NCBI RefSeq assembly: GCF_001677475.2
Contig: NZ_CP015229.1
Length of the DNA: 64,000 nucleotides
Reading direction: 5' to 3' (one strand)
Source of the DNA: Escherichia coli
GTDB lineage: Bacteria > Pseudomonadota > Gammaproteobacteria > Enterobacterales > Enterobacteriaceae
Shown here: piece by piece, positions 31,566 to 33,733 of the stretch
How the letters are laid out: the number at the start of each line of letters is the position of its first letter
Numbering within the stretch: the stretch's first letter is position 1
The notes under the pieces: model-generated
Seen by the model: only the letters and a program-made list of their open reading frames with translations
Databases searched by the model: none
Told to the model about the DNA's origin: nothing
Program-made: the position numbers and the translations under genes

Positions 31566-32516
31566 TTATTTCAGTAATAGTTCAGCTGTGCTGCTATTCG
31601 TTACCAGACAATTAATATATTTTCCACGCAGTGCACCAACAATTCCGCTGTATTTTTCTTCACTCATGGCAATGCCAATGGAATATCGTGCCTGCTTTAA
31701 TTTATTCATTTCGATAGAGAGTGTTTTTTCGCTCATATTCGTTTCAACCATTGCGCCGTGAATATCAAAAAAGCGCGAGCAAATATCGCCAGCAACCTGG
31801 CGGGCATTCAGGTCGTCACTCTCTTCACCACCATAAAACGCATGCCAGTTAGCGCCGTCGCGAATGGCCGGTGAGCCAATTCCCACCAGGGCGACATCCA
31901 GATTATCCCAGTAGGCAGAGATGGTTTTAAAGTGCTGAGACTGCATGATCCCATTACGAATTAATGGGTTATCCAGCAGAGCCGGAAAATCCGCGAGATG
32001 CGATTCCCCTTTCAGCTTCGCTGCCGCGCTGTAGGTTAATGTGTTTACATGATAGCGGCTTTCGAGTTTACCGGACGGTCCGCCAATAATTGGTACGCAG
32101 ATTAACTGCCGCGATTGCCCCGCCTGCGGTAAGTTTTCAACCAGTGCGCTCACCGCGCGACCCCAGGAAAAACCGACAATATCGCCAGGCTCCAGCAAGC
32201 GATCCAGCAGTTGCGCGCCGTGTAACCCCATCATCGCCAGTTGAGTCTCTTCATCCTCATCATTTCCCGACACCACCACAACGTCTTTCAGGCCAAACTT
32301 TTGCTTCAGTTGCTGCTCCAGCCAGAGATTTTCGTTGTAGTCATAGTTGATGGCGATGGTGACAATTCCCTGATCGCGGCCTCGTTTAAGCAAGCGGCTG
32401 ATGGTGGTGCGGTAAATACCCAGTTCGCGCGCAATTTGCGCCTGCGTCATATCCTGTTCGTAATAGAGTTGGGCAATCTTCACAATCAAACGGATATCGT
32501 CACTGTTTTCCATTGC
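31566..32516 (-). CDS. sorC: SorC-family transcriptional regulator of the sorbose operon
   Basis: ORF 31566..32597; start set at internal ATG (MENSDDIRLIVKIAQLYY), preceded by an AGGAGG Shine-Dalgarno; N-terminal HTH plus sugar-binding domain. Confidence 0.85.
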   Translation of the reverse strand, partial: AMENSDDIRLIVKIAQLYYEQDMTQAQIARELGIYRTTISRLLKRGRDQGIVTIAINYDYNENLWLEQQLKQKFGLKDVVVVSGNDEDEETQLAMMGLHGAQLLDRLLEPGDIVGFSWGRAVSALVENLPQAGQSRQLICVPIIGGPSGKLESRYHVNTLTYSAAAKLKGESHLADFPALLDNPLIRNGIMQSQHFKTISAYWDNLDVALVGIGSPAIRDGANWHAFYGGEESDDLNARQVAGDICSRFFDIHGAMVETNMSEKTLSIEMNKLKQARYSIGIAMSEEKYSGIVGALRGKYINCLVTNSSTAELLLK

Positions 32517-32529
32517 CGCCTCCTGGTTC

Positions 32530-32543
32530 TGCACATTTGTGCA
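32530..32543. promoter_or_regulatory. Palindromic operator-like site in the sorC 5' leader
   Basis: tgcacatttgtgca, a perfect 6-bp inverted repeat around a central tt, just upstream of the sorC ribosome-binding site; related copy tgcacatttgt at 32642-32652. Confidence 0.4.
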
Positions 32544-32860
32544 AATACGCTTTCTCACCGCTTGATCTGATATAACCCCATCATGATGGCCTTTCAAAGC
32601 GATTTTTCACTCTTTGCATGGGGAGAAATAGCGCTTTCTCTTGCACATTTGTTTCTCTGCGTAGTAGTCATCAGCACAGGTGTGCAGCGATTCGTAATAT
32701 GTTGATTATCTTTATTTTGCCAGGCAAATTTGCATCGTACTTCCGGAGACACTTTTGTGATAAAAGGCGTGGCAGATCACATTTAATTTCGACGTTGCCG
32801 CATAACCCTGTTTTTCCCCGCTAAGAGGTACGGTATATTCCGCGTTTTACAGGAGAATTT

Positions 32861-33733
32861 ATGCTGCCCGACTCATCAGTCCGTTTAAATAAATACATCA
32901 GCGAAAGCGGAATTTGCTCACGCCGCGAAGCGGATCGCTATATCGAGCAAGGCAATGTGTTCCTTAATGGCAAGCGAGCCACCATTGGCGATCAGGTGAA
33001 ACCCGGCGACGTTGTGAAAGTAAACGGTCAGTTGATTGAGCCTCGGGAAGCCGAAGATTTGGTACTTATCGCCCTGAACAAGCCCGTCGGTATTGTCAGC
33101 ACCACCGAAGATGGCGAGCGCGATAACATTGTCGATTTCGTTAACCACAGCAAACGCGTGTTCCCGATTGGCCGCCTGGATAAAGACTCCCAGGGGCTGA
33201 TTTTCCTCACCAATCACGGCGATCTGGTGAATAAGATCCTCCGTGCGGGTAACGATCATGAGAAAGAGTATCTGGTGACGGTCGATAAACCGATTACCGA
33301 TGAATTTATTCGTGGTATGGGGGCGGGGGTGCCAATCCTCGGGACAGTGACTAAAAAGTGTAAAGTCAAAAAAGAAGCGCCGTTTGTCTTCCGCATTACC
33401 CTGGTGCAGGGGCTGAACCGTCAGATCCGTCGCATGTGCGAACACTTTGGTTACGAAGTGAAAAAGCTGGAACGTACGCGCATTATGAACGTCAGTTTAA
33501 GCGGCATTCCACTGGGTGAGTGGCGCGATTTAACTGACGATGAGTTAATCGACCTGTTTAAACTCATCGAAAATTCCTCTTCCGAGGCAAAACCTAAAGC
33601 GAAGGCCAAGCCGAAAACGGTAGGCATCAAACGTCCAGTCGTTAAGATGGAAAAAACGGCGGAAAAAGGCGGTCGCCCGGCAACCAACGGTAAGCGTTTT
33701 ACCTCGCCGGGGCGTAAAAAGAAGGGGCGCTGA
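32861..33733 (+). CDS. rluF: 23S rRNA pseudouridine synthase F
   Basis: 290-aa ORF with S4 domain and RluA/RsuA-type catalytic region (RLDKDSQGL); lysine-rich C-terminal tail. Confidence 0.92.

What the first reader, a model, noticed from the sequence alone, without database searches (positions are those of the whole stretch)
32517..32660. Candidate SorC operator: palindrome and repeated motif in the sorC leader / rluF divergent region
Directly upstream of the sorC Shine-Dalgarno is a perfect palindrome tgcacatttgtgca (32530-32543). A second tgcacatttgt copy (32642-32652) and a repeated cgctttctc motif (32549-32557 and 32632-32640) lie about 100 bp further upstream. This layout suggests autoregulatory and operon-control sites for the SorC repressor/activator.
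Basis: inference. Interest (0 to 1): 0.3.

Follow-up and report, generated by a model that had tools for sequence, protein, structure and literature searches.

The report
Conserved SorC operator boxes at sorC
The palindrome in front of sorC is very probably one of three conserved binding boxes for SorC, the sorbose-operon regulator; SorC is the protein its family is named after, and I found no published operator for it in the papers I could search.

Summary

**The site.** tgcacatttgtgca (32530-32543) is the core of a 16-bp box, TTGCACA-N2-TGTGCAA (O1, 32529-32544).
- It lies between a conserved sigma70-like promoter and the sorC Shine-Dalgarno sequence.
- It is essentially invariant in 28 enterobacterial sor loci, where unnamed intergenic columns average 65% identity.
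- It is also present in K. pneumoniae, Kosakonia, Sodalis and a lineage whose SorC is 62% identical.

**The other boxes.**
- Spacings are rigid: O1-O2 112 bp, O2-O3 31 bp.

**Link to the protein.**
- Bacillales homologues have the same recognition helix but regulate other genes. They carry the same box.
- The box has the 16-bp geometry of the solved B. subtilis DeoR operator (TTGAA-N6-TTCAA).

**What failed.**
- The CGCTTTCTC repeat is not conserved, even within E. coli.
- RNA-structure readings found no support.

**Mechanism (inferred).** The SorC tetramer bridges O1 (about +26) and O2/O3 (about -86 and -117) to repress. The upstream boxes serve activation.

No binding or transcription-start data were available. 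This is a solid, testable prediction of modest novelty.

The parts
32529..32544 (-). O1, a full SorC box.
   Evidence: 13 of 14 symmetric positions match the consensus, the best site in the window. Mean column identity is 98% over 28 loci. It is present in K. pneumoniae, Kosakonia and Sodalis and in the 62%-identity lineage.
32641..32656 (-). O2, a half-box. It reads AGAAACAAATGTGCAA on the sorC strand; only the promoter-proximal 7-mer TGTGCAA matches.
   Evidence: CAAATGTGCAA is 89-100% conserved. Its centre is 112 bp from the O1 centre in 25 of the 28 aligned loci, 113 bp in Serratia, and 101 bp in the two Kluyvera, where it is a full palindrome.
32672..32687 (-). It reads CTGCACAccTGTGCTG on the sorC strand.
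   Evidence: Found. The arms GCACA/GTGC are 93-100% conserved and the centre is variable. It lies 31 bp from O2 and 143 bp from O1 in the E. coli-type loci.
32569..32574 (-). Candidate -10 hexamer TATATC of promoter P1. It sits inside the invariant block GGGTTATATCAGATCA (32563-32578).
   Evidence: This is the best and only consistently conserved sigma70-like promoter on the sorC strand: mean 5.3 bits, against 1.8 for the next independent site (home-made matrix). The hexamer is 99% conserved. It lies exactly 24 bp from O1 in every lineage.
32592..32597 (-). Candidate -35 hexamer TTGAAA of P1, with a 17-bp spacer.
   Evidence: It reads TTGACT in the 62%-identity lineage and TTGAAA in Sodalis.
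32519..32524 (-). sorC Shine-Dalgarno sequence AGGAGG. The start codon ATG is at 32513..32511.
   Evidence: Read from the sequence. The N-terminus MENSDD matches the crystallised K. pneumoniae SorC, 2W48.
31566..32513 (-). sorC, the SorC-family regulator and first gene of the operon sorCDFBAME (down to 26800).
   Evidence: Full-length match to 2W48 (E 1.9e-183) with one substitution in the first 50 residues. It has the PF04198 sugar-binding domain plus a helix-turn-helix. The downstream genes are typed.
32764..32785 (-). Distal conserved element. AAATGTGATCT is a perfect CRP left half; the right half is poor (ACGCC).
   Evidence: TGTGATC is 93-100% conserved. Its centre is 237-238 bp from the O1 centre in the E. 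coli-type loci; in the 62%-identity lineage the distance was estimated by eye from the printed sequence. Its role is unresolved.
32748..32761 (-). Distal conserved element aCACAAAAGTGt. It shares the inner core of the box but lacks the outer TTG/CAA.
   Evidence: 85% mean identity. It matches the box at 9 of 14 positions in K. pneumoniae. Its role is unresolved.
32703..32710 (-). Conserved AATCA block. It could be the -10 hexamer GATAAT of a weak second promoter, P2.
   Evidence: The matching -35 is poor and the block is absent in Kluyvera. This is inference only.
32548..32556 (+). CGCTTTCTC copy 1. Rejected as a functional element.
   Evidence: Its columns are 62% conserved. It reads CGCTTTTTA in E. 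coli strains E69 and SCPM-O-B-8794.
32632..32640 (+). CGCTTTCTC copy 2. Rejected as a functional element.
   Evidence: Its columns are 70% conserved against a 65% background. It reads CGCTTTATC in E69.

Best explanation
The palindrome is the core of O1, one of three binding boxes for the SorC regulator in the sor control region. The box consensus is TTGCACA-N2-TGTGCAA, i.e. TTGCA-N6-TGCAA.

Each box would be read by a dimer of helix-turn-helix domains, and SorC is a dimer of dimers. O1 sits 24 bp downstream of the -10 hexamer of the conserved promoter P1. P1 is TTGAAA-17-TATATC, with a predicted start near 32562, so O1 spans about +19 to +34. O2 (centre about -86.5) and O3 (centre about -117.5) lie upstream of P1.

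Because sorC is the first gene of the operon, these sites control both SorC itself and the whole sorbose pathway.

Proposed mechanism:
- Without sorbose, one dimer of the tetramer binds O1 and the other binds O3 or O2. This closes a 112-143-bp loop around P1 and blocks initiation or promoter escape.
- With inducer, the dimer-dimer bridge is lost, and SorC on O2/O3 upstream of the -35 helps RNA polymerase.

Status of each step:
- Shown: the boxes exist, are conserved, keep fixed spacing and co-occur with the SorC-type DNA-binding domain.
- Inferred: P1 and its start site, SorC occupancy, looping, and the split of roles between the boxes.

The confidence of 0.75 is for the boxes being SorC binding sites that control the operon. 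The looping and activation details alone would rate about 0.35-0.4.
For: 1. Conservation. In 28 enterobacterial sor loci, O1 is 98% conserved, the O2 half-site 89-100% and the O3 arms 93-100%. Unnamed intergenic columns average 65%. The same three boxes occur in K. pneumoniae, Kosakonia and Sodalis.
2. A sor operon whose SorC is 62% identical has boxes at 0, -98, -144 and -281.
3. Spacing is rigid. O1-O2 is 112 bp and O2-O3 is 31 bp, and the -10 to O1 distance is 24 bp everywhere. Kluyvera has two full palindromes 101 bp apart, 11 bp less than 112.
4. The box follows the protein rather than the pathway. Bacillales homologues (43-48% identity) have the identical recognition helix LGIYRTTISRLLK, sit next to rpiA-like and oxidoreductase genes, and have TTGCACAATTGTGC boxes upstream in tandem 19-20 bp apart.
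5. The SorC DNA-binding domain matches crystallised K. pneumoniae SorC at all but one of its first 50 residues, and its recognition helix is very close to that of B. subtilis DeoR, keeping both DNA-contacting arginines. The DeoR operator half-site is TTGAACA within TTGAA-N6-TTCAA, the same 16-bp frame (PMC11229326).
6. SorC family members bind as tetramers to two half-operators. In the K. pneumoniae SorC crystal (2W48) the tetramer has one pair of DNA-binding domains on each side of its core (PMC2943609). SorC is reported to be both repressor and activator (title of Wöhrl et al. 1990, cited).
7. The boxes cluster: three of the 17 box-like sites in 64 kb fall within 159 bp.
Against: - There are no binding data and no mapped transcription start.
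- P1 has a weak -10 (C at the last position). The standard promoter scan found nothing. My matrix uses base frequencies recalled from memory.
- The box spacings of 31, 112 and 143 bp differ from the spacing of about 2 turns (about 70 A) used by DeoR and CggR and suggested by the SorC crystal.
- The O2 half-site is 98 bp from O1 in one lineage rather than 112, so its helical phase is not conserved.
- A conserved distal module with a CRP-like half-site lies about 211 bp upstream of the P1 start. It is not explained by this model and hints at a second promoter.
Confidence: 0.75

Rival explanations
1. The boxes are SorC sites, but the architecture differs. The working promoter is a distal, CRP-dependent P2, with -10 GATAAT at 32710..32705. 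O3 (about +17) and O2 (about +48) then form a downstream tandem operator that blocks elongation, as CggR does at +32 to +77. O1 is an auxiliary site in a long leader of about 185 nt.
For: - A conserved TGTGATC element (a perfect CRP left half) and a conserved AATCA block lie upstream of O3 at fixed distances.
- The CggR operator lies downstream of its start site, and cggR is also the first gene of its operon (PMC11229326).
Against: - P2 has no recognisable -35.
- Its -10 is degenerate in Kosakonia.
- The CRP-like centre would fall at about -75.5 to -77.5, not a canonical class I position.
- Kluyvera lacks the whole distal module yet keeps P1, O1 and an upstream palindrome.
- P1 scores far higher across species, and its distance to O1 is fixed.
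Confidence: 0.2
2. The palindrome acts at the RNA level, as a small hairpin in the sorC leader next to the Shine-Dalgarno sequence that modulates translation or mRNA stability.
For: The predicted fold of the leader contains a 7-bp hairpin on the palindrome, and it lies 5 nt from the Shine-Dalgarno sequence.
Against: - The fold is no more stable than shuffles (z = -0.43; 62 of 200 shuffles fold as well).
- No Rfam family matches.
- The arms never vary, so there is no compensatory change.
- The same motif recurs at O2 and O3 upstream of the likely promoter.
- In Bacillales it occurs at -29 to -178 from the start codon, in one case overlapping a promoter-like -35/-10.
Confidence: 0.03
3. The boxes are bound by a different transcription factor, such as a global regulator or a SorC-family paralogue like LsrR, and not by SorC.
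For: No binding data assign the site to SorC. The distal conserved elements show that other factors probably act in this region.
Against: - The box co-occurs with SorC-type recognition helices in enterobacteria and Bacillales across different operon contexts.
- SorC is the only regulator encoded in the mobile sor cluster, which is present in only 2863 of 5426 E. coli genomes.
- The half-site differs by one base from that of the structurally characterised homologue DeoR.
Confidence: 0.05
4. The repeats are chance similarities in an AT-rich intergenic region.
For: In the single sequence, a palindrome with 6-bp arms (30% of shuffles) and a 9-mer repeat (26%) are unremarkable. This explanation does hold for CGCTTTCTC.
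Against: Invariance across 30 or more taxa with fixed spacing. About 49-fold enrichment upstream of sorC.
Confidence: 0.01

Closest known systems
B. subtilis DeoR operator (dra-nupC-pdp), SorC/DeoR subfamily; structures 7BHY and 8R7Y (PMC11229326)
   Same: - The regulator has the same family and helix-turn-helix type. PMC11229326 gives 48% identity between the DNA-binding domains, and the contact arginines are conserved.
- The 16-bp frame is the same: TTGAA-N6-TTCAA against TTGCA-N6-TGCAA.
- The half-sites TTGAACA and TTGCACA differ at one base.
- Several boxes are used by a dimer-of-dimers protein.
   Different: - The two DeoR half-operators are about 22 bp apart and overlap the -35. The enterobacterial SorC boxes are 31, 112 and 143 bp apart, with one box downstream of the promoter.
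- DeoR is described only as a repressor, and its gene lies outside the regulated operon.
B. subtilis CggR operator (gapA operon)
   Same: - The regulator is the first gene of its own operon, so it is autoregulated.
- The operator lies downstream of the start site (+32 to +77).
- A tetramer binds two half-operators, and the inducer breaks the dimer-dimer bridge (PMC2943609).
   Different: - The DNA-binding domain is a winged helix.
- The recognised sequence is unrelated (CGGGAC...GTC).
- The arrangement is a contiguous 45-bp tandem.
- No activator role is described in the papers read here (PMC11229326, PMC2943609).
Repression loops such as gal OE/OI (about 113 bp apart) and the AraC O2/I1/I2 switch (from my own knowledge)
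   Same: - Operators flank the promoter at about 100-210 bp.
- The regulator is oligomeric.
- For AraC, the same protein represses by looping and activates from promoter-proximal upstream sites.
   Different: - The protein families are unrelated.
- Looping by SorC is only inferred here, from the positions of the sites and from one 11-bp and one 42-43-bp spacing difference between lineages.

Membership tests
SorC/DeoR-subfamily operator | The cognate regulator has an N-terminal helix-turn-helix domain plus a PF04198 sugar-binding domain. | tested here: met
   Full-length match to K. pneumoniae SorC 2W48 (E 1.9e-183). PF04198 at E 1.4e-80 plus helix-turn-helix hits. Best NCBIfam hit is Bacillus-type DeoR.
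SorC/DeoR-subfamily operator | A 16-bp inverted repeat of 5-7-bp half-sites in the DeoR frame (TTGAA-N6-TTCAA). | tested here: met
   O1 is TTGCA-CAAATG-TGCAg. The DeoR operator sequence is taken from PMC11229326.
SorC/DeoR-subfamily operator | Two half-operators about 2 helical turns apart, bound together by one tetramer. | tested here: not met
   In enterobacteria the spacings are 31, 112 and 143 bp, and no second box lies within 19-22 bp of O1, O2 or O3 (checked by eye on the sequence). The feature is met in the Bacillales homologues, at 19-20 bp.
SorC/DeoR-subfamily operator | The box is conserved upstream of orthologous regulators. | tested here: met
   28 aligned loci plus K. pneumoniae, Kosakonia, Sodalis, Kluyvera and a 62%-identity lineage.
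SorC/DeoR-subfamily operator | Specific binding by the purified regulator, relieved or altered by the sugar effector. | not testable with these tools
   Needs EMSA or footprinting. PMC2943609 (2010) states that operators in the family had been identified only for DeoR and CggR.
Repression loop (two operators flanking a promoter) | The operators lie on both sides of the core promoter. | tested here: inconclusive
   True if P1 is the promoter. No start-site data are available.
Repression loop (two operators flanking a promoter) | The operator spacing keeps its helical phase when its length changes. | tested here: inconclusive
   The distance from O1 to the nearest upstream full palindrome is 143, 142, 144 or 101 bp, so differences are 42-43 bp, or about 4 turns. 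The O2 position is 112 against 101 bp, or about 1 turn. But the half-site is at 98 bp in one lineage, and only 3-4 architectures are independent.
CRP binding site (distal element 32764-32785) | TGTGA-N6-TCACA at a canonical distance from a start site. | tested here: inconclusive
   The left half is perfect and invariant. The right half matches 2-3 of 5 positions. The centre falls at about -211 from P1 or about -75.5 from the putative P2, and neither is canonical.
Cis-regulatory RNA hairpin | Stability above background, covariation, or a known family. | tested here: not met
   z = -0.43. No Rfam match. The arms are invariant, so there is no covariation.

The most novel reading that the evidence does not exclude
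SorC, the protein that names the family, does not use the compact two-turn tandem operator seen for DeoR and CggR. Instead it uses a split operator of three or four boxes. One tetramer closes a fixed-phase loop of about 100-145 bp around its own promoter to repress. On sorbose it hands over to upstream-bound dimers that activate, an AraC-like switch. This would be the first looping mechanism in the SorC family. It would also explain how one protein is both repressor and activator.
Probability: 0.3. Interest if true: 0.55.

Novelty: new member of a known kind. Interest (0 to 1): 0.35.

Why it matters
- **A gap in the family.** SorC gave its name to a large family of sugar-responsive regulators and has a full-length crystal structure, yet I found no published operator for it. 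A 2010 paper says operators were known only for DeoR and CggR. A text search for the box sequence found only two unrelated eukaryotic papers.
- **Direct tests become possible.** A precise 16-bp box and a three-site map make EMSA, footprinting, co-crystallisation and reporter experiments immediately designable.
- **A test of dual function.** The map offers a concrete way to ask how a SorC-family tetramer can both repress and activate.
- **Limited practical weight.** The sor operon is an accessory sugar pathway, present in about half of complete E. coli genomes.

Tried and rejected
- **CGCTTTCTC as a regulatory motif: rejected.** It is not conserved between genera and varies within E. coli. A repeated 9-mer is expected in 26% of shuffles.
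- **RNA hairpin or known RNA family: rejected**.
- **Sigma-54 promoter using the TTGCA of O1:** checked by eye. There is no GG 10 nt upstream, and the position is not conserved.
- **Standard sigma70 and terminator scan:** nothing found. I therefore scored promoters with a home-made matrix across orthologues.
- **Second box about 20 bp from O1, O2 or O3 (the DeoR-style tandem):** none found.
- **Primary literature:** Wöhrl 1990, de Sanctis 2009, Sprenger 1984 and Wu 2013 are not held. Any start site, CRP site or operator they report could not be checked. RegPrecise-type databases could not be consulted.
- **Metagenome scan for alternative O2-O1 spacings:** 63 hits, mostly with no SorC homologue nearby. 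It yielded Kluyvera-type loci (101 bp) and one new sor lineage (98/144/281 bp). That weakened a simple claim that O2 is always in phase with O1.
- **CRP assignment of TGTGATC:** left open.

Full report
**Setting**

The window comes from a sor-positive E. coli.
- On the minus strand lies the complete L-sorbose operon. The genes are sorC (31566-32513), an SDR dehydrogenase, the PTS components EIIA, EIIB, EIIC and EIID, and a zinc-type dehydrogenase (down to 26800). pepE follows.
- rluF starts at 32861 on the plus strand.
- The SorC protein matches crystallised K. pneumoniae SorC (2W48) over its full length, with E 1.9e-183 and one substitution in the first 50 residues.
- The cluster is accessory. 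2863 of 5426 complete E. coli genomes carry this intergenic region. The others share homology only from about 32826 onward.

**Checking the observation**

- The palindrome has 6-bp arms around a non-symmetric TT, so it is not perfect.
- The first CGCTTTCTC copy is at 32548-32556.
- A third related inverted repeat (AGCACAggTGTGCA, 32673-32686) was missed.

From this sequence alone the features are only marginally unusual. An 11-mer repeat appears in 1.9% of shuffles, a palindrome with 6-bp arms in 30%, and a repeated 9-mer in 26%.

**Comparative evidence**

A genome scan with SorC returned 44 loci. I aligned the upstream regions of 27 enterobacterial orthologues with the window. These came from Escherichia, Pseudocitrobacter, Citrobacter, Klebsiella, Raoultella, Mangrovibacter, Serratia, Pantoea, Cedecea, Entomohabitans, Kluyvera and Enterobacter.

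Against a background of 65% column identity, sharp footprints appear.

| Element | Window coordinates | Conservation |
|---|---|---|
| O1, TTGCACAAATGTGCAg | 32544..32529 | 98% mean |
| O2, CAAATGTGCAA | within 32641-32656 | 89-100% |
| O3, arms GCACA...GTGC, variable centre | within 32672-32687 | arms 93-100% |
| GGGTTATATCAGATCA | 32578..32563 | 96% mean |
| Distal blocks TGTGATC, CACAAAAGTG, TGCAA, AATCA | 32703-32781 | conserved |

- Spacing is rigid. O1-O2 is 112 bp and O2-O3 is 31 bp in 25 of the 28 aligned loci. Serratia is 1 bp longer.
- Kluyvera has just two full palindromes 101 bp apart and no distal module.
- K. pneumoniae itself, Kosakonia and Sodalis show the same three boxes, at 112/31, 112/31 and 111/31 bp.
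- A metagenome scan added a sor operon whose SorC is 62% identical. It has boxes at 0, -98 (a half-box), -144 and -281.
- Within E. coli, substitutions avoid O1 and O2. One divergent strain (SCPM-O-B-8794) carries changes in O3.
- Both CGCTTTCTC copies vary within E. coli and are unconserved elsewhere.

**The box belongs to the protein**

- Three Bacillales homologues (43-48% identity) share the SorC recognition helix exactly (LGIYRTTISRLLK). They sit next to rpiA-like and GFO/IDH/MocA genes, not sorbose genes.
- All three have TTGCACAATTGTGC boxes upstream, with a second box or half-box 19-20 bp away.
- Box-like sites are about 49 times denser upstream of enterobacterial sorC than in the flanks. 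O1 is the best site in the 64-kb window.
- The solved B. subtilis DeoR-DNA complexes use the half-site TTGAACA within TTGAA-N6-TTCAA (PMC11229326). The SorC box TTGCA-N6-TGCAA has the same 16-bp frame and differs at one base per half-site.
- The two DNA-contacting arginines of DeoR are conserved in SorC.

**Promoter**

The standard scan found none. A position-weight scan across all orthologues singled out one promoter. Its hexamer frequencies were recalled from memory.
- That promoter, P1, is TTGAAA (32597..32592), a 17-bp spacer, then TATATC (32574..32569). It averages 5.3 bits, against 1.8 for the next independent site.
- It is present in every lineage and reads TTGACT in the 62%-identity lineage.
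- Its -10 hexamer is always 24 bp from O1.
- A start near 32562 puts O1 at +19 to +34, O2 at about -86.5 and O3 at about -117.5. This is inference, because I could not obtain start-site data.

**Mechanism**

- SorC family members bind as dimers of dimers to two half-operators. Inducers break the dimer-dimer bridge (PMC2943609, PMC11229326).
- In the K. pneumoniae SorC crystal (2W48), the tetramer has one pair of DNA-binding domains on each side of its core. SorC is reported to act both positively and negatively.
- The best-fitting model has a tetramer bridging O1 and O3 or O2, enclosing P1 in a 112-143-bp loop to repress. Upstream-bound SorC then activates when sorbose is present.
- In favour: the distance from O1 to the nearest upstream full palindrome is 143, 142, 144 or 101 bp in four architectures. 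These differ by about 4 turns.
- Against: the half-site sits at 98 rather than 112 bp in one lineage. None of the spacings equals the two turns used by DeoR and CggR. Only a few architectures are independent.

**Rivals**

- A distal, CRP-dependent P2, with O3 and O2 acting as a downstream tandem operator, cannot be excluded. It would explain the conserved distal module. But P2 is weak, it is missing in Kluyvera, and the CRP-like site would sit at a non-canonical distance.
- An RNA hairpin is unsupported. The fold gives z = -0.43, no Rfam family matches, and there is no covariation.
- Binding by another factor, and chance, are both unlikely given that the box co-occurs with the SorC DNA-binding domain.

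**Novelty**

- In the searchable literature, the only statement on SorC operators is that none had been identified by 2010. The 2024 structural paper gives none. A text search for the box sequence found only unrelated eukaryotic papers.
- I classify this as a new member of a known kind (a SorC/DeoR-type operator). Its split arrangement may prove to be a new variant.

Noticed in passing
window 32700-32790: A distal module upstream of O3 is conserved in all enterobacterial sor loci except Kluyvera. Its blocks are TGTGATC (a perfect CRP left half with a weak right half), aCACAAAAGTGt, TGCAA and AATCA. The CRP-like centre lies about 237-238 bp from O1, also in a lineage with only 62% SorC identity. 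It could mark a CRP site, a second promoter or further regulator sites.
   Followed up: partly
window ~32826 (sor island junction); rluF start 32861: E. coli genomes without the sor operon share homology with the window only from about 32826 onward. The sor island therefore ends about 35 bp before rluF, and the region that would hold the rluF -35 is island DNA. In several other genera with a different neighbouring gene, a fragment resembling the rluF upstream region (AAAACGCGAAATATACC) still travels with the sor cluster.
   Followed up: partly
L100 / L102 (metagenome and genome contigs), about 300 bp upstream of the sorC-like gene: A sor operon without sorD, with SorC 62% identical, has four boxes at 0, -98 (a half-box), -144 and -281. 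Two of them are perfect 14/14 palindromes. The same -10 block and CRP-like element are present.
   Followed up: yes
L022, L023, L093, L101 (Kluyvera-type loci): A minimal architecture with only two full palindromes 101 bp apart flanking P1. There is no O3 and no distal module, and rluF lies much closer.
   Followed up: partly
L035, L036, L044, L039, L040 (Chloroflexi MAGs), 0-80 bp upstream of SorC-family genes: Distant homologues (25-30% identity, recognition helix SRVKVYRLL) carry repeated GTGCAATTGCAC palindromes next to TTGACA/TATxxT promoters. The half-site is related but arranged back to back.
   Followed up: no
L048, L052, L059, L068, L076, L081, L083, L087, L097, L107 (metagenome contigs): A family of near-identical loci carries TATTGCACATATGTGCATCCAkGAGCTGAAAACCTGCACAAGG with a GTGCAAT 107 bp upstream. 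No SorC homologue lies within the fetched DNA, and what they are is unknown.
   Followed up: no
L046 (Sodalis sp. RH22) 2521-2679: In Sodalis only a 52-residue ORF lies where sorD sits in E. coli. This suggests that sorD is decayed or lost, as in the L100 lineage.
   Followed up: no
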